Shown piece after piece: positions 4,501 through 61,172 of a stretch of 64,000 nt of DNA (the first letter of the stretch is position 1; the number at the start of each line of letters is the position of its first letter). Made by a program: the position numbers and the translations under genes. Below the pieces are notes generated by a model. That model did no database searches and had not been told where the DNA came from. It saw only the letters and a program-made list of their open reading frames with translations. The stretch lies in the NCBI GenBank assembly GCA_029210965.1, contig JARGFZ010000003.1, positions 55,893 to 119,892 of the forward strand. Direction: 5' to 3'. The stretch is from a bacterium. GTDB lineage: Bacteria; BMS3Abin14.

Positions 4501-4549
4501 GGTCCTGGGTCCTGTGTTCTGTGTTCTGTGTTCTGTGTTCTGCGTTCCG
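4501..4549. repeat. tandem heptamer repeat (ggtcctg x2, tgttctg x4, cgttccg)
   Basis: seven consecutive 7-nt units seen directly in the sequence, between convergent genes. Confidence 0.9.
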
Positions 4550-8495: not shown

Positions 8496-8628
8496 TCTCA
8501 TATCTCAAATCTCAAATGTGATCCAAGACCTTGAAAGTTTAACTCTGTGTCACCCTGTGGTGCGGCCTGGGAGCGGCCGTACTGTGGTAAATTAGCTTTA
8601 CCCGCTTTAACAGGAACCGCTCTTCCCT

Positions 8629-8676: not shown

Positions 8677-8770
8677 ACCCTTCGCCAAGGCTACGGGTGG
8701 CAAGCAGATTTCCTCCTGCTTCTGCGTGCTGCGTCCTGTGTGCTGCGTGCTAAACCTTACCGTTCACTGT

Positions 8771-9532
8771 TCACCGCACTTTACCAACTGGCGCCAGATA
8801 CACTGTAAACTCTTCTTCCCCGTCCACACCGATGAGTTCGTCCACCTCCTGCTGGTCGTAGGCAGCCACACCGCAAGTCCCGGCGCCAATGGCCTCACAG
8901 GCAAGGTACAGGTTCTGGCACACGTGGCCCACATCAATGAGGATCACCCGGTGAGCAAGCGGTCCATACCTCCACTCCATGCGGTAGGGGATGGTGGTCC
9001 ATACAAAGGTCACGGCCCCGGCACCCACAAACTGCTGTCCCAAACAGGCCAGGGTGACCCTTATCTCCATGTTATCGACCTTGCCCAGGAAAACCAGTGC
9101 ATGTTCCATGGGCAGGTATAGGTAAAGGCCGGGATCGACCCCTTCCACATTTCTTATCAGCAGGTAGGTCTCGAAGCTGTGCCGGGCACCGGCAGACGGC
9201 ACCGTGCGCAAGGCTACCGAAGGGTGCGGAGTCTGCCGCACACCTTGAGTGCAGTAGAGAAGAAAGGAAAGTTCGGCAAGGGACAGGTCGTCCGGCAGGT
9301 AATGCCGCCTGCTCTCGCGGTTTAGGATGGCCGATTCCAGGTCTGTTCCGGGGATATCCCCTTTCCAGTCCGCGGGAGCCGGAAGCGAAACCCGGCGCGC
9401 TGCCGGATCGAAAGGCTTCTGGACGGGAGGCGCCGGCACACCCTGGTGCTGATCGGTCTGCCGGAAATCATATTCTTTGCGCAGGGTGTCTTTCAGAAAC
9501 TCCCGATGCTGTTTAATAAGATCGTTTTTCAT
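8771..9532 (-). CDS. SagB-type dehydrogenase / nitroreductase-superfamily protein
   Basis: RRHYLPDDLSLAELSFLL ... SAGARHSFETYL ... typical of the SagB/ThcOx nitroreductase-like family. Confidence 0.7.
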   Translation of the reverse strand: MKNDLIKQHREFLKDTLRKEYDFRQTDQHQGVPAPPVQKPFDPAARRVSLPAPADWKGDIPGTDLESAILNRESRRHYLPDDLSLAELSFLLYCTQGVRQTPHPSVALRTVPSAGARHSFETYLLIRNVEGVDPGLYLYLPMEHALVFLGKVDNMEIRVTLACLGQQFVGAGAVTFVWTTIPYRMEWRYGPLAHRVILIDVGHVCQNLYLACEAIGAGTCGVAAYDQQEVDELIGVDGEEEFTVYLAPVGKVR

Positions 9533-19646: not shown

Positions 19647-19963
19647 AGGAATGATTACTATAAAAGCGTTGTTTTGAACGCAGAGGTCGCGAAGGACGCT
19701 GAGGAAAACCTTAATCTGGTTTAAAACTGACTGTCATTCCGGACACGGCCTGGTGCCGTGATCCGGAATCCAGCAATTCAGGCCGCGGCGGATCACGAAT
19801 CACGAATCACTGTTTTTTCACACCAGACACAGAGTTCACGGAGAAAGGCTGTGCTTGTGGAGTAGCATTATTCCTTTAAAAGCGTCCGATTTTGAACACA
19901 AAGTTCACGAAGTAACACGAAGGGGTTCTTTGAGACCTGATATATCTTTACTTTGTTTACTTC

Positions 19964-20655: not shown

Positions 20656-20829
20656 GATTTAAAACTTTCACTTCAAATATTTTTTCATCAGGATTCACCC
20701 GGTGTAAACCTGTGGTGCGGCATTCAAGTGGCCGCTCTGCCTGCCCTGAGCCTGCCGAAGGGTGTACCCTGTGTTAAAGTCTTTTTCGGTTTTGTGGGCA
20801 ATACTCTCCACCAGAATATAGATTTTCTC

Positions 20830-20925
20830 TGCGTAACTCTGCGGTTCAGCCTGGGAATGGCTGAGCTGCGTCCTTCCGCCGTCACTCTGCGAGCTATGGC
20901 GGACAGGCTGCGTTAAAGCTTGTGC
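20830..20925 (+). repeat. ~95-nt dispersed repeat, copy A
   Basis: ~90% identical to the reverse complement of 22598..22692; partial related copy at 36096..36150. Confidence 0.7.
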
Positions 20926-22999: not shown

Positions 23000-23145
23000 G
23001 CAGTACTAATGTGGGCGTTTATTACAGTGCCCATAGTCTCGGTACTCAATGTTTTGATCTTGCTGTTGATCATGGAAGCTGTGAATCGAAGAAAATTATA
23101 AGCATTCAGCGGCTATTAATCCTCTTCTACGTTCAACATTGATAA

Positions 23146-23297
23146 AGTCGCAAAAAGTCCAATCCGGGACTTTTTGCTCCACGGAAAGGGAAAAGCGTCG
23201 TTTTCCCTTTTTTTACAAATCAATGACTTACAGTGCGAGTCATTAATCAATGCGCCCCGCGCGGGGCGCATTGATGGACTTTTTGCGAGTCCATCAA
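23146..23297. mobile_element. ~150-bp MITE-like multi-hairpin element, copy 1
   Basis: terminal inverted repeats agtcgcaaaaagtcc / ggactttttgcgagtcc, 4-5 internal stem-loops, flanked by direct repeat tCAACATT on both sides; ~90% identical to 34767..34917. Confidence 0.7.
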
Positions 23298-23373
23298 CAT
23301 TCTACATTCTGACTAGAATTACTGACTCCTTTGTTCTTGATCTTTCCCCGACACCCCGATACTCCGACACAGA

Positions 23374-24534
23374 CTATACTCCTGGGTACTGCCCTATTTT
23401 TATAAACTGTACCGCCACCAGCGACACCAGACTCAGCACCGCCCCCGCCACGAACGGGATCCGATAATCCACGACCCAGAGCATGCCGCCGATGATCGGG
23501 AGGATTACGGCTGCTATGTGGTTAATGGTAAAACCCACGGCCATGCTCGGGGCGATGTCCTCCCTGTCGGCCACTTTCTGAAAGTAGGTCTTGATCGCCA
23601 TGGAGAAATTAAAGAGGAGGTTGTCGAGTATGTAAAGTCCGGCCGCCACCCAGCGGGACCCGGTCAGTGCATAGGCCAGAAAGATGATCACCAGCCCCCC
23701 GTATTCGATAGACAGAACCTTGCGCTCGCCGAACCTCACAATGGCCTTCCCCACCAGGGGAGCGGCGAAATAACCGATGATGTTGTTGAGGATGAAAAGG
23801 ACCGTGACCTCCTTCACACTGAAACTAAAAACCTTGACAAGCAGAAAAATAGAGAAAGCAATGAAGATCTGTCGCCTGGCCCCGGCCATGAAGGTGAGAA
23901 AATAGAAGAGGCGGTATTTCCACTTGAACACCATCTCCTTTTTCTGGAGCGCAAGTTCGTGGTCGACAGGGTTCTGTCTCAACCCCCAGATACCGAAACA
24001 GACCACTATTAAACCCACCGCCAGGAACATCATGCGGTAGTCGAGATACCAGCTCATAAAGTACACCAGGCCACCCACGGCTACATTAGTGGCCGCAGAC
24101 AGGCTGCGGATGGAGCCCAAAACGTGGGGAGCGGTAGCGGAGTCGAAATACTGAAGAGTCAGGGACTGGTTGGTGGTTTCGTAGAAATGAAAGCCGAAAC
24201 TCAGGAGCATGGTAGTCGCCGCGATACCGATAAAGGTGGGGAAATATCCGGTTACGCCGACACCTGCGCCCAGGACCAGGATGGAAAGGGCAGACAACCG
24301 ATGTTCCTTTATAACCAGCATGACCCAGACGGCCAGCAGCGCCAGAAACCCGGGGATCTCCCTCACAGATTGGACGATCCCCATGTGGTTGCCGTCCAGG
24401 TTAGCCCACTCGACGGCGAAGTTGTTGAGAAGCGTTCTCCAGCCCTGGAGCCCGATCATGGAGGCTACGCTGAGGATCAAAAGGAAACGCAGCATGGAAC
24501 GTTGACGATCCGGGACTTTGGGTATGGAAAACAT
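23374..24534 (-). CDS. MFS transporter (12 TM)
   Basis: 386 aa, ~12 predicted TM helices in 6+6 arrangement. Confidence 0.8.
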   Translation of the reverse strand: MFSIPKVPDRQRSMLRFLLILSVASMIGLQGWRTLLNNFAVEWANLDGNHMGIVQSVREIPGFLALLAVWVMLVIKEHRLSALSILVLGAGVGVTGYFPTFIGIAATTMLLSFGFHFYETTNQSLTLQYFDSATAPHVLGSIRSLSAATNVAVGGLVYFMSWYLDYRMMFLAVGLIVVCFGIWGLRQNPVDHELALQKKEMVFKWKYRLFYFLTFMAGARRQIFIAFSIFLLVKVFSFSVKEVTVLFILNNIIGYFAAPLVGKAIVRFGERKVLSIEYGGLVIIFLAYALTGSRWVAAGLYILDNLLFNFSMAIKTYFQKVADREDIAPSMAVGFTINHIAAVILPIIGGMLWVVDYRIPFVAGAVLSLVSLVAVQFIKIGQYPGV

Positions 24535-24684
24535 CGGGGCAGGTTACAGGGAAAAAGAAAAAGGGGAAAGGACAAGCGATAGAATCGCCTGACACAAAGA
24601 CCCGGCGACACGGGGACACGGGGAAGGAACCCTCACCGCGTCATCGCGTCTTCGCGTCACCGCGTCAAGATTAACCAGGGGTGC

Positions 24685-25678: not shown

Positions 25679-26039
25679 TTTTTACCCCCTTAAAACACTC
25701 ACACACACCCCGATCACGGCTATTCTTGTCCCTTTTCACTTGTCCCTTGTCACTTGTCTTTTGTCCCTTGTTTATAGTATTAGCGGTAAATAGTTGAAAA
25801 GCAAGGAGGGTAAACAAAACCAATCTCAGATCCCAAATCCCAAATCTCAAAGTAATAAGATCCAGGAGCCATCCGGCCTGGCAACAAGCCTCGCCAAGGC
25901 CATGGAGGGCAGGCAGAGTAAATTCATTTTTCACCTCTACTCCTACTAATACTTAAACTTATTCTTATACTTATACTTCCACCAACCCATGGTATAAAAT
26001 TGACTGAATACACAACATTTTCATCCAAAGAGAGGCCTG

Positions 26040-46763: not shown

Positions 46764-46886
46764 TGATCATCTGTCCCGTTAGTGACCGGGGTCTTTGGTT
46801 TGTTCGAGTTACGAGTCACTAATCACGAGTCACGGTTCTTCCCGAATCACGAATCACGGTTCTTATTCCGAGTTCCGAGTCTCAAA

Positions 46887-51360: not shown

Positions 51361-51464
51361 CTATTGTTTAACCAGTTCCACACGGCGGTTCTTTGCCCGC
51401 CCTCCGTCGCTGGTGTTTGCCATGACCGGTGCCAGGGGGCCGACGCCTTCACCTCGCAGGCGGC
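51361..51464 (-). repeat. duplicated 3' fragment of the OmpA-family gene (~89% identical to 53391..53493)
   Basis: encodes ...SRLRGEGVGPLAPVMANTSDGGRAKNRRVELVKQ* in its own frame, matching the C-terminus of the OmpA gene at 53388..54305; only ~48 codons are open. Confidence 0.75.
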
Positions 51465-52789
51465 TGACGCCACAGATTGTTATGTGTAAGGCCCGAATTC
51501 CCACTGATCAACATCTCGGAGGAGCGGTTCATGTTCTGCTTGCCGGACAGTGTGTTAGACCATTCACTATCCAGGAAATGCCACCTCCAGATGAAGTACC
51601 TTTTGGCACACGCTTTCTTGCCGAGCACCGTATTCCCGAAGCTGCATCCCCCCCATTCACTCTTTTTGCTTGTGGCTGCGTCTCCGAGGGTAAAGGTTTG
51701 CACCACCGTCCGGCTGGACGCTGTATTGGCATTAAGATAGGCATTAGCGACTGTCCGCCCGTCCATCCACTGTTTCGCAAACGGAACGGTCTGGGTCGGA
51801 TAGAAATTGATGAACCGCGATCCTAAAACAGTATTGACCCCTATCCCCTGCCATGCGGAGGCGAGGCGGCTGCCCCAGCAACTCGTGTGATGCACCAGCC
51901 GGATGGGCAGGAACCGGTATCCGGTCGTCCCTCCGTCGGGTCCGGCGAGGCCACCGATGTCCGCTGCCGTAACCTGGTCGTTATTGGTCAGGCTGTACGG
52001 CCCGAAGCTAGCCCGGAATCTTCCGTCGGACCCGCCGTGAGAGATGATCCATATGTCGATGGTGTACCCCTCATCGGCGAGGCGCTTTATATAGGCAAAC
52101 AGGTTGTTTTTGGTCGGCGCGTCCTTGATGTTGACGGTTCGTTCATCCTGCTCGGACAGATCCAGCCACGGTTCCACATTGTCATGCTTGAGAATAACGT
52201 TAAAATCGTAAAGTTCCATGATCTTTTTCAGTTTGACCGTCTCCTGGAAAAAGGATTTGAAGGGACTGTCGGCCATATAGGAAAAGATGATCCCGGCTTT
52301 GCGACCCGTCAGCTTCGGCAGCAACGGTTCAGCCTCGTTTTGCTGGGCCGGTGGTGGAGTCGAAGAGGTCGATGGAGGCGGTGCAGACGTGCCTGCGGCC
52401 GGCGTCCTGATGACCGGTGTTCTGATGACAGGTTGGCGTGTCTGCCACAGTGGCGCAACAGGTGTGGTGCCCACCGGGCGCGGTTGCACAACCGGTGTGG
52501 TGGCCGTTGGTTGCGTGCTTTGCTGCTGGGCGGGAGTTGAAACGGAAGGACTTGAAGTTGCAGCAGGAGCCGTCCATGTACCTGGCTGCGGCGCCTGTAC
52601 AGTTTGAACTGTGCTGGCAGTTGGCTGTGATGGGATGGTCTGCGTGGGCTGCTGTATCTGCTGGGGTTGCGTGGTGGTCATCGCACCGCCCCAGACGGGA
52701 AGGTTGCCGGCTGATGCCCAACTGCTGCCAAACAGCACACCCGCCGCTACAGTAAGGGGAAATAAGGATTTAAACCGGAAATTTTTCAC
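51449..52789 (-). CDS. secreted protein with long Pro/Thr/Gln-rich linker and uncharacterised C-terminal domain (possible His/Cys hydrolase)
   Basis: GTG start with gaggag RBS, signal peptide, ~130 aa of PTQS low complexity, then a globular domain (…IWIISHGGSDG…LVHHTSCWGS…); its 3' end runs into the duplicated OmpA fragment in another frame. Confidence 0.55.
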   Translation of the reverse strand: MKNFRFKSLFPLTVAAGVLFGSSWASAGNLPVWGGAMTTTQPQQIQQPTQTIPSQPTASTVQTVQAPQPGTWTAPAATSSPSVSTPAQQQSTQPTATTPVVQPRPVGTTPVAPLWQTRQPVIRTPVIRTPAAGTSAPPPSTSSTPPPAQQNEAEPLLPKLTGRKAGIIFSYMADSPFKSFFQETVKLKKIMELYDFNVILKHDNVEPWLDLSEQDERTVNIKDAPTKNNLFAYIKRLADEGYTIDIWIISHGGSDGRFRASFGPYSLTNNDQVTAADIGGLAGPDGGTTGYRFLPIRLVHHTSCWGSRLASAWQGIGVNTVLGSRFINFYPTQTVPFAKQWMDGRTVANAYLNANTASSRTVVQTFTLGDAATSKKSEWGGCSFGNTVLGKKACAKRYFIWRWHFLDSEWSNTLSGKQNMNRSSEMLISGNSGLTHNNLWRQPPAR

Positions 52790-53387: not shown

Positions 53388-54305
53388 TTACTGTTTCACC
53401 AGTTCCACCCGCCGGTTCTTTGCCCGCCCTCCATCGCTGCTGTTTGCCAGCACCGGCACCAGGGGGCCAACGCCTTCACCTCGCAGGCGGCTTTTTGCGA
53501 TGCCGTACTTTACCGTCAGGACCTCCACCACCGCCCTGGCTCGGCGCACGGAAAGATCCCTGTTGTAATCCAGGCTCCCGACGCTGTCGGTATGTCCCAC
53601 GACGTAAAGATTCAGATCGGGCCTCTGAGCGAGGAGTTTCGCGATCTCGCCTAACGCTTGCTCGGATTCCGGTTTCACATCTGCTTTGTCGGTGTCGAAA
53701 TAGATGCCGTAGATGGAGGCGTGCCCGGTGCGGTCGATCTCGTCGGCCAGAGCATCGGCATCCACCTTGACCAGCCCCGTTTCCATGGGCTTTGATTCCA
53801 CGATCCCCAGGAAGGTCTTGTCGGTGCCCTTGCACACGTGGAGGTTTACGAAGATGTCACCTTCAGGCCGCGCAAGCCTGGCCGTGGCGTGTCGCTGCTC
53901 GAAACAGGCCCACCGGTAGTTGAGCATGGGATCCTCCGGGCCTGGTTTGCCGCACTCCTTGTCGGCGCAGGTAAAGAGAAACTCGAAGCCGCCGGCCTTC
54001 ATGGCTTCTTCGTAGTTCTGGTAGATCTCCAGGGTCGACCTTTTTTTAGGGTTCTGATAGACGATCCCGGTGGCCTTGCCCTTGACGGTTATGGTGTCAG
54101 CAAAACCGTCACGTCCTGATTTACCCGTGGGCATCTGCACTTCGTCGAAATCGCGGACAAAGGACTTGCCCCCCTTCGACCCGGGATAACGCTTGATCAA
54201 GGGATGGTCGCCGTCTTCGGCCCTGGAACCGGGAACCCAGGCGAACATTATTGCCGCCACCAGGACGAGAACAAATACCGTCAACGATGATTTTCCATAC
54301 AACAT
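53388..54305 (-). CDS. OmpA-family protein (N-terminal domain + C-terminal OmpA_C peptidoglycan-binding domain)
   Basis: signal/anchor; C-terminal OmpA_C motifs (…YVVGHTDSVGSLDYNRDLSVRRARAV…GRAKNRRVELV). Confidence 0.85.
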   Translation of the reverse strand: MLYGKSSLTVFVLVLVAAIMFAWVPGSRAEDGDHPLIKRYPGSKGGKSFVRDFDEVQMPTGKSGRDGFADTITVKGKATGIVYQNPKKRSTLEIYQNYEEAMKAGGFEFLFTCADKECGKPGPEDPMLNYRWACFEQRHATARLARPEGDIFVNLHVCKGTDKTFLGIVESKPMETGLVKVDADALADEIDRTGHASIYGIYFDTDKADVKPESEQALGEIAKLLAQRPDLNLYVVGHTDSVGSLDYNRDLSVRRARAVVEVLTVKYGIAKSRLRGEGVGPLVPVLANSSDGGRAKNRRVELVKQ

Positions 54306-59420: not shown

Positions 59421-61121
59421 TTATTGGACGCTGATCTCATATTTAAAATTACCTGTGGTCCGGTAACCATCAATTCTGACGGCGATTCCTCTTGTCTTAA
59501 CCTCTCTGAAAGTGAAAGAACAAGTCTGCCCGATATTATCCTTGCCTTTGGCGAACTCACAGTTCCACGGTGTCCAAAAATGTCCCCAATCTCCCATGTA
59601 ACCAACCACTGTTGCTCTGGATCCTCCGTCAATTTTTTTTATTGTTATCGTGACAGGATCATTCGATTGCCAAAAGTGTCTAAGAAATTTCTTGTGGGTT
59701 GCGGAAACAATATTTCCCGTTCTGGATTCACCTCTTCCTGGCAATTGGACAATTGAATCATTTCTTCTGAAAACATTTGCCGATAAAGGGAAATTGTCCA
59801 TGCATGAATAATAAAATCCCATTCTCATGTTTGCCGGAAAGTTTTGGATCGCATTCCGGTTACAAGGCAGTTCCCCTCTGGGGGTATTGACAGTCACGGT
59901 AAAAGTTCCAGTAGTGCCGCCAGCTACAGGAGTGTTCCCTATCGCCGCGTTGCCATTCAAGATGTTATAGATATAAGGAGCATTTATATTCCCGCTAACG
60001 TATTTCCAGGTAGAAAGTGGTTTGTTCTGGCCGTTGTAAATAGTTTCCCACGATTGAGTTTGCCATGGTTTTACACGCCATTCCTGAGCTGCAGCTGTTG
60101 CACTCGGGGAAACAAGTGTTGCCCCAATTGTCATTGTTGAACCACTATCTGAATCCTGGGTCGTTGTGCTTGATTGCGACGGTGATGAGCCTTGCTGCTG
60201 ATCAGCCTGGGTCGCTGTTGGCTCCACCGGTGTCGCCACAATGGGAGCAGGGCCGGAGGAACGCTGACCGCTTACCGGCGTCACGGTCCCCTGGACAGGT
60301 GTTCCTGTTATGAGAGGAGGCGATGACTGCTGCTGATCGGCCTGGGTCGCCGTGGGCTCCACCGGCGTGGCGACAACGGGAGCGGGGCCGGAGGAACGCT
60401 GACCGCTTACCGGCGTCACGGTCCCCTGGACAGGCGTTCCTGTTATGAGAGGAGGCGATGACTGCTGCTGCCCGGCCTGGGTCGCTGTGGGCTCCACCGG
60501 TATCGCCACAATGGGAGCAGGACCGGAGGAACGCTGACCGCTTACCGGTGTCACGGTCCCTTGAACCGGTGTACCGACGATAGGCGTCGGAGAGGCCGGC
60601 TGGGGGGCGGGAACAGGGGGAGGTGTCCATCCGCCTCCGCTGGCGGGCGGACTGGCTCCCCACTGCGGCGCGGGAGCTTGATTAGAGGGCGGAGGGGCGG
60701 CGCCTCCGGGTTCACTCCACTGGCCCCCGCCGTCATTGGCGGGCTGGCCGTTATTCTGGCCGGCTCCGGGCTCCGGCCCCATGGATGCCGGCCAATAGAC
60801 GGTGATGGTCACTGTGGACCCGAGCATGGTTATCCCACCAGCGCCTGGTTCCTGATCGATGACCGTGCCCTCTCTCCCGGCGAGATCCTCCCTGTATTTC
60901 CTGGCGTACACGATACTCGGCTCGACCCCGGATTGCTGCAGGACGGCCATGGCATCTGACTCGTACATCCCGACAACGCCCGGCACCCGGATCATCTCAT
61001 CGGCCGCCTGATTGTAACGCTGCTGGCTCGGGCCCCGGTCGAGAGCACCGCCAAGTCCCGCCGCAGGGAGCAACAAACCGAACATGGGCAGGACGATATA
61101 AACAAGTCTGCTAAATTTCAT
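59421..61121 (-). CDS. secreted protein: PASTA domain + Pro-rich linker + 3 tandem 41-aa repeats + Cys-containing C-terminal domain
   Basis: ATG 61121 with aggagg RBS; PASTA-like VPGVVGMYESDAMAVLQQSGVEP...GTVIDQEP; three near-identical ~123-nt DNA repeats at 60195..60565. Confidence 0.7.
   Translation of the reverse strand: MKFSRLVYIVLPMFGLLLPAAGLGGALDRGPSQQRYNQAADEMIRVPGVVGMYESDAMAVLQQSGVEPSIVYARKYREDLAGREGTVIDQEPGAGGITMLGSTVTITVYWPASMGPEPGAGQNNGQPANDGGGQWSEPGGAAPPPSNQAPAPQWGASPPASGGGWTPPPVPAPQPASPTPIVGTPVQGTVTPVSGQRSSGPAPIVAIPVEPTATQAGQQQSSPPLITGTPVQGTVTPVSGQRSSGPAPVVATPVEPTATQADQQQSSPPLITGTPVQGTVTPVSGQRSSGPAPIVATPVEPTATQADQQQGSSPSQSSTTTQDSDSGSTMTIGATLVSPSATAAAQEWRVKPWQTQSWETIYNGQNKPLSTWKYVSGNINAPYIYNILNGNAAIGNTPVAGGTTGTFTVTVNTPRGELPCNRNAIQNFPANMRMGFYYSCMDNFPLSANVFRRNDSIVQLPGRGESRTGNIVSATHKKFLRHFWQSNDPVTITIKKIDGGSRATVVGYMGDWGHFWTPWNCEFAKGKDNIGQTCSFTFREVKTRGIAVRIDGYRTTGNFKYEISVQ
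60195..60565. repeat. 3 x ~123-nt in-frame tandem repeat inside the PASTA-domain gene
   Basis: seen directly; encodes SPPLITGTPVQGTVTPVSGQRSSGPAPIVATPVEPTATQADQQQ x3. Confidence 0.9.
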
Positions 61122-61172
61122 GAGAGATCCTCCTGGACGTGATGCAACGGTGTCCACAATCAGACTGTTCCA

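What the first reader, a model, noticed from the sequence alone, without database searches (positions are those of the whole stretch)
23146..23297. MITE-like ~150-bp element (2 copies) with TIRs, target-site duplications and compensatory stem changes
The copies at 23146..23297 and 34767..34917 are ~90% identical and built of consecutive hairpins (gcaaaaagtcc/ggactttttgc; gggaaaa-gcgtcg-ttttccc; aatgactta…agtcatt; cgccccgcgcggggcg; gatggact…agtccatc). Their ends are inverted repeats of each other (agtcgcaaaaagtcc … ggactttttgcgagtcc). Each copy is flanked by its own 7-8-bp direct repeat (tCAACATT for copy 1, tCAAACTT for copy 2), as expected for transposition. Several differences between copies are compensatory within stems, which hints that the element is also transcribed as a structured RNA. 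One copy sits just downstream of the hgc-nitroreductase cluster.
Basis: seen in the sequence. Interest (0 to 1): 0.55.

Follow-up and report, generated by a model that had tools for sequence, protein, structure and literature searches.

The report
Hairpin-rich MITE with 6-bp duplications
The two repeats are copies of a ~154-bp non-coding mobile element (a MITE) from an apparently undescribed, hairpin-rich family found in sediment and vent bacteria of two phyla; it is real, but an ordinary kind of genomic parasite.

Summary
Two ~154-bp copies (23141-23295 and 34762-34915) are 88-89% identical. Each is a string of five hairpins with ~20-bp terminal inverted repeats (GAYnnnnTCGCAAAAAGTCC).

The true target-site duplication is 6 bp (AACATT, AAACTT), not 7-8 bp. 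The extra 'TC' lies outside the duplicated block.

A genome-collection scan found the same architecture in at least 20 genomes: Desulfurivibrio, Desulfobacteraceae and related MAGs, and Mariprofundaceae. These include short ~45-bp forms, dimers, tandem arrays and a second interior type.
- Of 67 full-length copies, 32 carry a perfect 6-bp flanking repeat, against ~1 expected.
- The target is A-W-N-N-W-T.
- A metagenomic relative has the copy-2 site without the element.
- Stems covary strongly: 22 of 41 pairs, and 0 of 500 shuffles reach the observed values.

Nothing marks it as a single-strand RNA. G·U and A·C cells are equal in number, there is no orientation or gene-context bias, and there is no Rfam match.

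No transposase was found in the window or in the 120 genome loci, so the autonomous partner is unknown.

Verdict: a genuine MITE, a new member of a known kind. The one unusual feature is an interior whose hairpin structure is conserved across phyla.

The parts
23141..23295 (+). MITE copy 1 (155 bp), from the GATAAAG... terminus to the ...GTCCATC terminus
   Evidence: nhmmer model positions 1-154, E 1.6e-38; fold z -9.2 and -11.6.
23135..23140 (.). Left copy of the 6-bp target-site duplication of copy 1 (AACATT)
   Evidence: Read directly. The register was fixed by the family analysis.
23296..23301 (.). Right copy of the 6-bp target-site duplication of copy 1 (AACATT)
23141..23160 (+). Left terminal inverted repeat of copy 1, GATAAAGTCGCAAAAAGTCC
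   Evidence: Columns 8-20 are invariant or nearly invariant in 67 copies; columns 8-20 and 27-34 were also fixed by the search pattern.
23276..23295 (-). Right terminal inverted repeat of copy 1. Its reverse complement is GATGGACTCGCAAAAAGTCC, matching the left TIR at 16/20. It also forms hairpin H5 (GATGGACT/AGTCCATC).
23150..23177 (.). Hairpin H1 of copy 1: the core of the left TIR paired with an internal inverted copy of itself (GCAAAAAGTCC-aatccg-GGACTTTTTGC)
   Evidence: helix 1, 99.6% paired.
23186..23209 (.). Hairpin H2 of copy 1 (AAGGGAAAA-gcgtcg-TTTTCCCTT)
   Evidence: helix 2: 6 of 9 pairs with compensatory change.
23222..23244 (.). Hairpin H3 of copy 1 (AATGACTT...GAGTCATT). Its base is lost to H4 in this copy.
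   Evidence: (helix 3: 9 of 11 pairs with compensatory change).
23246..23275 (.). Hairpin H4 of copy 1, extended to a perfect 13-bp palindrome ATCAATGCGCCCC-gcgc-GGGGCGCATTGAT. It gives a terminator-like hit because a T-run follows.
34762..34915 (+). MITE copy 2 (154 bp), inserted in a (TCAAACT)n heptamer array between convergent genes
   Evidence: (E 1.4e-44).
34756..34761 (.). Left copy of the 6-bp target-site duplication of copy 2 (AAACTT)
   Evidence: A relative without the element is shown.
34916..34921 (.). Right copy of the 6-bp target-site duplication of copy 2 (AAACTT)
34762..34781 (+). Left terminal inverted repeat of copy 2, GATAGAGTCGCAAAAAGTCC
34897..34915 (-). Right terminal inverted repeat of copy 2 (reverse complement GATGACTTCGCAAAAAGTC). 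With 34894-34896 it forms hairpin H5.
34771..34798 (.). Hairpin H1 of copy 2
34806..34831 (.). Hairpin H2 of copy 2
34837..34871 (.). Hairpin H3 of copy 2 (16-bp stem)
34873..34890 (.). Hairpin H4 of copy 2 (GCGCCCC-gcgc-GGGGCGC)

Best explanation

**Anatomy.** Each is ~154 bp of non-coding DNA bounded by ~20-bp inverted termini (GAY-nnnn-TCGCAAAAAGTCC). The interior is a string of hairpins (H1-H5).

**Mechanism (inferred).** The element encodes nothing. A transposase made elsewhere in the genome must bind the two termini, cut the element out or copy it, and insert it with a 6-bp staggered cut. Repair of the stagger leaves the 6-bp duplication.

**Target.** The preferred target is A-(A/T)-N-N-(T/A)-T, often preceded by TC.

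**Derivatives.**
- The left end carries the terminal motif twice, in inverted orientation (H1).
- A 45-bp minimal form, consisting of left terminus, loop and right terminus, also exists and moves.
- Dimers can move as a unit.

**What is shown and what is inferred.**
- *Shown:* the termini, the 6-bp duplications, the multi-copy and multi-genome distribution, the derivatives, and a homologous site without the element.
- *Inferred:* that the enzyme is a DDE-type transposase, and which IS family supplies it. No candidate was found.
- *Untested inference:* the interior hairpins are conserved by compensatory change between host-specific subfamilies, so they are probably needed for the element to propagate or to be tolerated, for example as DNA or RNA secondary structure that insulates neighbouring genes.
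For: **Termini and architecture**
- They are conserved in 67 aligned full-length copies from at least 20 genomes.

**Target-site duplication**
- 32 of 67 copies have a perfect 6-bp repeat in one fixed register. Shuffled pairing of flanks gives a mean of 1.0 and a maximum of 4 in 1000 trials.
- Identity between the two flanks is 0.70-0.78 at the six positions and 0.2-0.5 outside them.
- A stricter set gives 15 perfect and 6 one-mismatch repeats among 39 copies, against 1.1 and 5.8 expected.
- Duplications that lack the usual A...T (CTCTCT in L074, TTACAT in L110) still match on both sides. This fixes the length at 6 rather than 4.
- Seven of the 34 regex matches have a perfect 6-bp repeat (the script flagged 6), against 0.6 expected; only some of the 34 are true short forms. 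Others have 5- or 7-bp repeats.

**Other signs of mobility**
- In L027 a dimer, A-agcatt-B, is flanked by an outer ATCTTT duplication. In the Mariprofundaceae, arrays repeat one 6-mer at every junction.
- Copies within a genome are 82-95% identical. Copies between genomes are 67-83% identical.
- Many MAG contigs break inside the element.
- In metagenome contig L121 the ion-channel gene is 90% identical in protein. Its downstream heptamer array reads GTTTG-AAGTTT-GAGGTT without interruption. In the window the element and a second AAGTTT sit in that position.

**No coding capacity, no transposase nearby**
- 154 bp leaves no room for a transposase gene. Pfam scans of 65 window ORFs found no transposase domain.
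Against: - **No autonomous partner.** None was found between inverted termini 0.4-4 kb apart in the 120 genome loci, as a multi-copy ORF in those loci, or in the window. The mobilising enzyme is therefore inferred only.
- **Only two copies in the window.** The rest of this genome could not be searched.
- **About half of the copies lack a perfect duplication**. This is expected for old copies but remains an assumption.
- **The L121 site is not a clean empty site.** It lies in a tandem heptamer array and carries a different ~50-bp insert nearby.
- **Interior conservation is unusual.** A plain DDE MITE does not need strong structural conservation of its interior, so something else may be acting.
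Confidence: 0.87

Rival explanations
1. The element is primarily a gene for a structured non-coding RNA (or a cis-acting RNA module such as a terminator or stabiliser). In this reading the inverted ends are just the closing helix.
For: - Folding is very stable (z -9 to -12).
- Covariation is strong: 95% of cells are paired, 22 of 41 pairs show compensatory change, and 0 of 500 shuffles reach the observed values.
- Loops vary about twice as much as stems.
- Both window copies lie between convergent genes.
- H4 of copy 1 scores as terminator-like.
Against: - Copy-specific 6-bp duplications, dimers and short forms are transposition signatures, not features of an RNA gene.
- There is no strand signal. 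G·U cells number 92 and A·C cells 86; counted as distinct events the figures are 38 and 39. Host groups lean in opposite directions.
- There is no orientation bias in co-directional gaps (14 against 23). Convergent gaps are not enriched: 13 of 62 against a 17% background.
- No Rfam match, at the gathering threshold or at E<=1.
- Copy 2 has no terminator-like site.
- Clustered multi-base changes, as at 23245-23251, can be made by hairpin template-switching without any selection on RNA.
Confidence: 0.08
2. It is a REP/REPIN-type or IS200/IS605-derived palindromic element, moved as single-stranded DNA by a tyrosine HUH transposase (RAYT or TnpA) that recognises the hairpins.
For: - The element consists almost entirely of hairpins, and their structure rather than their sequence is conserved.
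- The 45-bp short form looks like a REPIN.
- TTGAT and TCAA, which straddle the element-flank junctions, resemble IS200/IS605 cleavage motifs. This resemblance rests on my own recall.
Against: - Those systems make no target-site duplication and have no terminal inverted repeats. Here both are present and statistically solid.
- The TTGA/TCAA motif dissolves into a 6-bp TSD plus the GAY...RTC termini once copies with other targets are examined (L074, L080, L110).
- No Y1 transposase domain was found in the window ORFs.
Confidence: 0.03
3. It is not mobile at all: a duplicated regulatory or terminator region spread by segmental duplication or gene conversion.
For: There are only two copies in the window, both in 3' intergenic regions.
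Against: - Homology stops exactly at the inverted termini, and the flanks are unrelated.
- The same unit occurs in dozens of unrelated contexts in at least 20 genomes of two phyla.
- The flanking 6-mers differ between copies but match within a copy.
Confidence: 0.02

Closest known systems
Correia elements (CREE/NEMIS) of Neisseria
   Same: ~100-155-bp non-autonomous elements with ~26-bp terminal inverted repeats. They are multi-copy and intergenic, come in full-length and internally deleted forms, and fold into hairpins when transcribed. (Established knowledge; also named as MITEs in PMC11602168.)
   Different: Correia elements duplicate TA (2 bp), whereas this element duplicates 6 bp (A-W-N-N-W-T). 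The termini share no sequence similarity. The interior here is three further independent hairpins that covary. The host range here spans two phyla, not one genus.
ERIC/IRU and RUP (enterobacterial and pneumococcal MITEs of the IS630 type)
   Same: Small imperfect palindromes in intergenic DNA that are mobilised in trans.
   Different: Those elements insert at TA. No similarity was detected: the Rfam and BLAST searches were empty.
BOX elements and BIMEs (mosaic repeats)
   Same: Modular build. Constant end modules can carry no cassette (the 45-bp form), the H2-H4 cassette, or in the Mariprofundaceae a different cassette.
   Different: BOX elements and BIMEs lack a defined pair of terminal inverted repeats with a target-site duplication. 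Here both are shown.
ISNCY / ISDol1 group of insertion sequences (candidate parent; recalled from memory only)
   Same: As I recall the ISfinder family table, this group makes 6-7-bp direct repeats, and its type element comes from Desulfococcus oleovorans (Desulfobacterota). Both the duplication length (6, occasionally 7) and the host clade would fit.
   Different: Nothing was tested. I could not obtain an ISDol1 sequence or its terminal repeats. The only in-library mentions confirm just that the subgroup exists. Other families with about 6-bp repeats (IS481, IS1634) are not excluded.

Membership tests
MITE (definition as in PMC11602168: 50-800 bp, non-coding, TIRs of at least 10-15 bp, TSD of 2-10 bp, no transposase) | Terminal inverted repeats of at least 10-15 bp | tested here: met
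   The termini are 19-20 bp and match at 16/20 (copy 1) and 15/19 (copy 2). The core TCGCAAAAAGTC is conserved at both ends in 67 copies.
MITE | Target-site duplication of 2-10 bp, different for each copy | tested here: met
   The duplication is 6 bp. It is perfect in 32 of 67 copies against 1.0 expected. Both window copies are perfect.
MITE | Small size, with no coding capacity and no transposase | tested here: met
   154-155 bp is far too short for a transposase gene. The ORFs that cross it are artefacts of open frames.
MITE | Multiple dispersed copies in a genome | tested here: met
   Two copies in the 64-kb window. There are at least 33 loci in one Mariprofundaceae MAG, 28 in ZodW_265, 21 in SZUA-204 and 9 in D. 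dismutans AMeS2. The window's own genome could not be searched as a whole.
MITE | Presence/absence polymorphism (an empty site) | tested here: inconclusive
   L121 has the homologous region downstream of the ion-channel gene without the element, and the junction sequence there is contiguous. The site is a tandem heptamer array, however, and the wider flank has diverged.
MITE | A cognate autonomous IS with the same termini | tested here: not met
   None was found in the window or in the 120 genome loci. This is not required by the definition, and fragmented MAGs rarely assemble IS elements.
REP/REPIN with RAYT | No target-site duplication; REP hairpins flanking a Y1 (RAYT) gene | tested here: not met
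   A 6-bp duplication is present. No Y1_Tnp domain was found in the window ORFs.
IS200/IS605-derived palindromic elements (PATE) | No TIRs, no TSD, and insertion 3' of a fixed 4-5-nt motif | tested here: not met
   TIRs and a TSD are present. The flanks vary (CTCTCT, TTACAT, ATGGAT...).
IS630/Tc1-type MITEs (Correia, ERIC, RUP) | TA dinucleotide duplication | tested here: not met
   The duplicated block is 6 bp. Agreement between the two flanks drops sharply outside it.
Any Rfam RNA family | Covariance-model score at or above the gathering threshold | tested here: not met
   There are 0 hits in the window at the gathering threshold. The best relaxed hit scores 19.7 bits against a threshold of 79.
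ISNCY/ISDol1-derived MITE | Termini identical to the IRs of an ISDol1-group IS; 6-7-bp direct repeat | not testable with these tools
   The repeat length fits my recollection of the ISfinder table. No ISDol1 sequence was available for comparison.

The most novel reading that the evidence does not exclude
The interior hairpin cassette (H2-H4) may be more than passive filler. It could be a selected structural module that the transposon carries around: for example a mobile bidirectional terminator or insulator, an RNA-stability element, or a DNA or RNA structure required for a step of mobilisation.

The basis is as follows.
- Its stems are kept by compensatory substitutions between host-specific subfamilies in two phyla, while the loops drift.
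- An unrelated interior with the same termini is again hairpin-rich.
Probability: 0.22. Interest if true: 0.6.

Novelty: new member of a known kind. Interest (0 to 1): 0.33.

Why it matters
**Practical value**
- The family is a marker of recent genome dynamics and a cause of contig breaks in MAGs of sulfur- and iron-cycling bacteria (Desulfobacterota and Zetaproteobacteria).
- Its precise consensus, 6-bp duplication and target motif allow it to be annotated. At present it is mis-called as ORFs: the 406-aa ORF at 33672-34892 runs through copy 2.

**Biological interest**
- Most prokaryotic MITE clusters are genus-specific (97.4% in PMC11602168, clustered at high identity). This family has clearly related subfamilies in two phyla.
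- That points either to horizontal spread of the helper transposase or to great age.
- The structure-conserving evolution of its interior is unusual for a MITE, and it could be tested in a cultured host, Desulfurivibrio dismutans AMeS2.

**No link to mercury methylation**
- Nothing ties the element functionally to the neighbouring hgcA-like or nitroreductase genes.

Tried and rejected
Rejected. Only the 6-bp register gives matching flanks, and copies with atypical targets fix the boundaries. A 4-bp TSD with T...A termini was rejected for the same reason.
- **IS200/IS605 or RAYT mechanisms,** suggested by the TTGAT and TCAA motifs. Rejected because a TSD and TIRs are present.
- **Search for the autonomous element.**
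  - Inverted termini 0.4-4 kb apart in the 120 genome loci enclose only ordinary genes.
  - Termini not followed by the known interior led to a second MITE type and to truncated copies, not to an IS.
  - An all-against-all comparison of 1580 ORFs found no multi-copy protein.
  - Pfam scans of 65 window ORFs found no transposase.
- **Empty sites among the fetched loci.** None was clean.
- **Other collections.**
  - Viral contigs: 0 matches to the pattern.
  - Phage records: only a chance 45-nt hit.
  - Plasmids: none.
  - 352 kb of metagenome loci around ion-channel homologues: no copy.
- **Literature.** Sequence-string searches gave nothing relevant. MITE-plus-taxon searches found no description of this family. 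'ISDol1' appears in only two papers, without sequences.
- **Exact-protein look-ups to identify the source genome.** Not on record.
- **Gene-context analysis.** It relies on a crude longest-ORF caller. The first version was spoiled by ORFs running into the elements and was replaced by a masked version.

Full report

Yes. The two stretches align from a few bases before GTCGCAAAAAGTCC to ...GTCATC and are unrelated outside that span.
- In the family alignment they differ at 18 of 160 columns.
- Exact modules of 20-28 nt occur only at these two places in the 64-kb window, with 0.00-0.01 matches expected by chance.
- A profile built from the family finds exactly two copies in the window.
- Each copy folds into a row of hairpins far more stably than shuffled sequence, on either strand and with RNA or DNA parameters: z from -8.8 to -11.6.

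**2. Surroundings in the window**

- Copy 2 lies between the stop codon of a nitroreductase with two 4Fe-4S motifs (33702-34559, +) and the stop codon of an ion-channel gene (34946-35770, -).
- Copy 1 lies between small unassigned ORFs and the stop codon of an MFS transporter (23374-24534, -).
- The 406-aa ORF at 33672-34892 that runs through copy 2 is an artefact.
- None of the 65 window ORFs scanned has a transposase domain.

**3. Relatives elsewhere**

I scanned one genome per species (GTDB collection) for the first hairpin, using the pattern TCGCAAAAAGTCC-N3-9-GGACTTTT. About five are unrelated terminator-like hairpins. The rest are the same element.

| Source | Loci |
|---|---|
| Mariprofundaceae MAG S009_29 | 33 |
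| MAG ZodW_Metabat.265 | 28 |
| MAG SZUA-204 | 21 |
| Desulfurivibrio dismutans AMeS2 (cultured isolate) | 9 |

- Other hosts are two further Desulfurivibrio genomes, several Desulfobacteraceae, Desulfobulbia and Desulfatiglandaceae MAGs, two further Zetaproteobacteria MAGs, and others.
- Desulfurivibrio belongs to the Thermodesulfobacteriota and the Mariprofundaceae to the Pseudomonadota. The family therefore spans two phyla.
- The window's copies are closest to those of MAG 'PFL40', at 0.90 identity.

**4. Anatomy**

Sixty-seven full-length copies align over 160 columns. The unit reads, in order:
1. GAY-nnnn-TCGCAAAAAGTCC, the left terminus.
2. A loop, then GGACTTTTTGC. This closes H1, so H1 is the terminal motif paired with an inverted copy of itself.
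3. A linker.
4. H2, H3 and H4.
5. GACTTTTTGCGA-nnnn-RTC, the right terminus, which also folds as H5.

Derivatives exist:
- A ~45-bp minimal form made of left terminus, loop and right terminus. It can be explained by deletion between the two direct GACTTTTTGC motifs.
- Internally deleted copies. L007 and L101 carry an orthologous insertion, one of them with a deletion.
- A second, ~114-bp type in the Mariprofundaceae, with the same termini and a different, also hairpin-rich interior.

**5. Transposition signature**

Placing the boundaries 7 nt outside TCGC and GCGA gives a 6-bp direct repeat immediately on both sides.
- It is perfect in 32 of 67 copies. Random pairing of left and right flanks gives 1.0 on average and never more than 4 in 1000 trials.
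- Agreement between the flanks is 0.70-0.78 at the six positions and falls to 0.2-0.5 outside them.
- A stricter set gives 15 perfect and 6 one-mismatch repeats among 39 copies, against 1.1 and 5.8 expected.
- The window copies have AACATT and AAACTT. On the right-hand side that 'TC' is the end of the element (...ATC). On the left it reflects a weak target preference.
- The target consensus is A-(A/T)-N-N-(T/A)-T, with TC favoured just before it.
- Copies whose duplication breaks the consensus (CTCTCT, TTACAT, TTCTCCT) still match on both sides. This rules out shorter duplications combined with longer termini.
- Some duplications are 5 or 7 bp.
- In L027 two copies separated by AGCATT are flanked together by ATCTTT on both outer sides, which is what is expected if the pair moved as one unit. 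In the Mariprofundaceae, arrays repeat the same 6-mer at every junction, as expected if a new copy chooses the site of an old one.
- Copies within a genome are more alike (0.82-0.95) than copies between genomes (0.67-0.83).
- Many MAG contigs end inside the element.

**6. A site without the element**

The one metagenome scan, made with the ion-channel protein, returned contig L121, 90% identical in protein.
- Downstream of its stop codon the same heptamer array reads ...GTTTGAAGTTTGAGGTT....
- In the window GTTTG-AAGTTT is followed by the element, then a second AAGTTT, then GAGGTT.
- Homology resumes further on: GTTCAAATTCCGGATATCG in L121 against GTTCAGAATCCAGGATATCG in the window.
- This is what an unoccupied site looks like. 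The repetitive context and a different ~50-bp insert in L121 make it supportive rather than decisive.

**7. Structure conservation**

RNAalifold predicts five helices (41 pairs). Of these pairs, 22 have compensatory double changes.

Counting on that structure:
- 95.0% of cells are paired, against 86.8% in shuffles.
- 230 cells carry changes on both sides, against 69 ± 6 in shuffles.
- The covariation score is 0.267, against 0.123 in shuffles.
- No shuffle out of 500 reaches any of the observed values.
- Controls with the 3' partner slid by 1-3 columns pair at only 30-52%.

Further points:
- H2, H3 and H4 carry most of the covariation. H1 is invariant, partly because the search pattern demanded it.
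- Loops are about twice as variable as stems: 0.93-1.23 against 0.50-0.69 bits.
- The sequences are related, and the structure was derived from this alignment, so these figures overstate significance. Even so, whole stems are rewritten between subfamilies, for example GGGAAAA/TTTTCCC, GCGAAAA/TTTTCGC and CCGAAAA/TTTTCGG in H2.

**8. RNA or DNA?**

An RNA read from one strand tolerates G·U but not A·C.
- In the stems there are 92 G·U cells and 86 A·C cells. Counted as distinct events, the figures are 38 and 39.
- Host groups lean in opposite directions.
- With the elements masked before ORF calling, 62 full-length copies could be placed:

| Gap type | Copies |
|---|---|
| Co-directional, element on the genes' strand | 14 |
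| Co-directional, element on the opposite strand | 23 |
| Convergent | 13 |
| Divergent | 12 |

- The background in the same loci is 65% co-directional, 17% convergent and 17.5% divergent. There is no orientation bias and no preference for 3' ends. That both window copies sit between convergent genes is therefore incidental.
- No Rfam family matches.
- Only copy 1 has a terminator-like site.
- In copy 1, five adjacent substitutions at 23245-23251 make H4 a perfect 13-bp palindrome while destroying the base of H3. This is the pattern left by template switching within a hairpin, a mutational route to 'compensation' that needs no selection. That mechanism is established knowledge of quasipalindrome mutagenesis; applying it here is my inference.

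**9. The missing partner**

- No transposase lies between inverted termini in the loci.
- No multi-copy ORF exists among 1580 ORFs of the loci.
- The window encodes none (section 2).
- Viral contigs, phage records and plasmids hold no relative.
- From memory, the ISNCY/ISDol1 group, named after a Desulfococcus element, makes 6-7-bp repeats. That would fit both the duplication and the hosts. I could not obtain a sequence to compare, and the library holds only two passing mentions. This is a lead, not a result.

**10. Comparison and verdict**

By the usual definition (PMC11602168: 50-800 bp, non-coding, TIRs of at least 10-15 bp, TSD of 2-10 bp, no transposase) this is a MITE.
- It works like Correia, ERIC or RUP elements, but it is not one of them: those duplicate TA and share no sequence with it.
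- Its modular build recalls BOX elements and BIMEs.
- I found no description of this family.
- It is a new member of a known kind.
- Two features lift it slightly above routine: related subfamilies in two phyla, and an interior whose hairpins are maintained by compensatory change.
- Whether that interior has a function of its own is the most novel reading still open. I put it at about one in five.

Noticed in passing
window 4505-4545, 19793-19817, 24590-24624, 30333-30383, 34916-34945, 46816-46864: Many intergenic regions hold short tandem arrays of 7-8-nt units (CTGTGTT, TCACGAA, GACACGGG, TCAAACT). MITE copy 2 is inserted inside one. Similar arrays flank MITE copies in other hosts (L118 GAACCTC, L119 CATCCTT, L098 GGACYTT, L025 GGATCAG).
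   Followed up: no
L010:420-533, with further copies in L012, L024, L026, L044, L051, L058, L074, L095, L104, L110: The Mariprofundaceae MAG S009_29 carries a second, ~114-bp MITE type. It has the same termini (TCGCAAMAAGTCCGTCCGTGG...) but a different interior, which also forms hairpins (DNA fold z -3.4). It often sits directly beside a copy of the first type and shares the same 6-mer.
   Followed up: partly
window 23245-23251: Five clustered substitutions relative to copy 2 and to the family consensus make H4 of copy 1 a perfect 13-bp palindrome (ATCAATGCGCCCC/GGGGCGCATTGAT) and break the base of H3. This looks like a single template-switch event rather than independent mutations.
   Followed up: partly
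L027:5128-5442: Two MITE copies separated by AGCATT are flanked together by ATCTTT on both outer sides. This suggests that a dimer transposed as one unit.
   Followed up: partly
L007:2256-2390 and L101:3830-3982: The same insertion site is occupied in two syntenic Desulfobacterota MAGs, labelled Desulfatiglandaceae and Desulfobacteraceae. One copy has lost H3 and part of H2. The insertion is therefore inherited vertically and is decaying.
   Followed up: partly
window 60193-60597: Three tandem copies of a 135-nt unit (83-93% identical to the reference copy) lie inside the 578-aa ORF at 59421-61157 (-), which has a PASTA domain. This corresponds to a 45-residue protein repeat.
   Followed up: no
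window 51362-51465 and 53389-53492: A 104-nt direct repeat (89% identical) sits about 2 kb apart. One copy overlaps the 3' end of the ORF at 51449-52789 and the other the 3' end of the OmpA-family ORF at 53388-54305.
   Followed up: no
window 8679-8705, 25888-25914, 37699-37725, 37844-37870; and 8539-8584, 20694-20739, 20823-20868: Two further small dispersed repeats are present: a 27-nt motif CCTTCGCCAAGGCTACGG..GGCA.GC in 4 copies, and a 46-nt motif in 3 copies. They may be other repeat families of this genome.
   Followed up: no
window 30814-32109 (-) and 33702-34559 (+): The 431-aa ORF has a CdhD-type corrinoid domain (E 2e-11), as expected for HgcA. The 285-aa ORF is a nitroreductase with an N-terminal two-cluster ferredoxin domain. 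A second nitroreductase lies at 8771-9532.
   Followed up: partly
L022, L027, L037, L040, L057, L062, L102, L105 (contig ends): Many MAG contigs end inside a copy of the element. The family is therefore a practical cause of assembly breaks in these genomes, and copy numbers in MAGs are underestimates.
   Followed up: no
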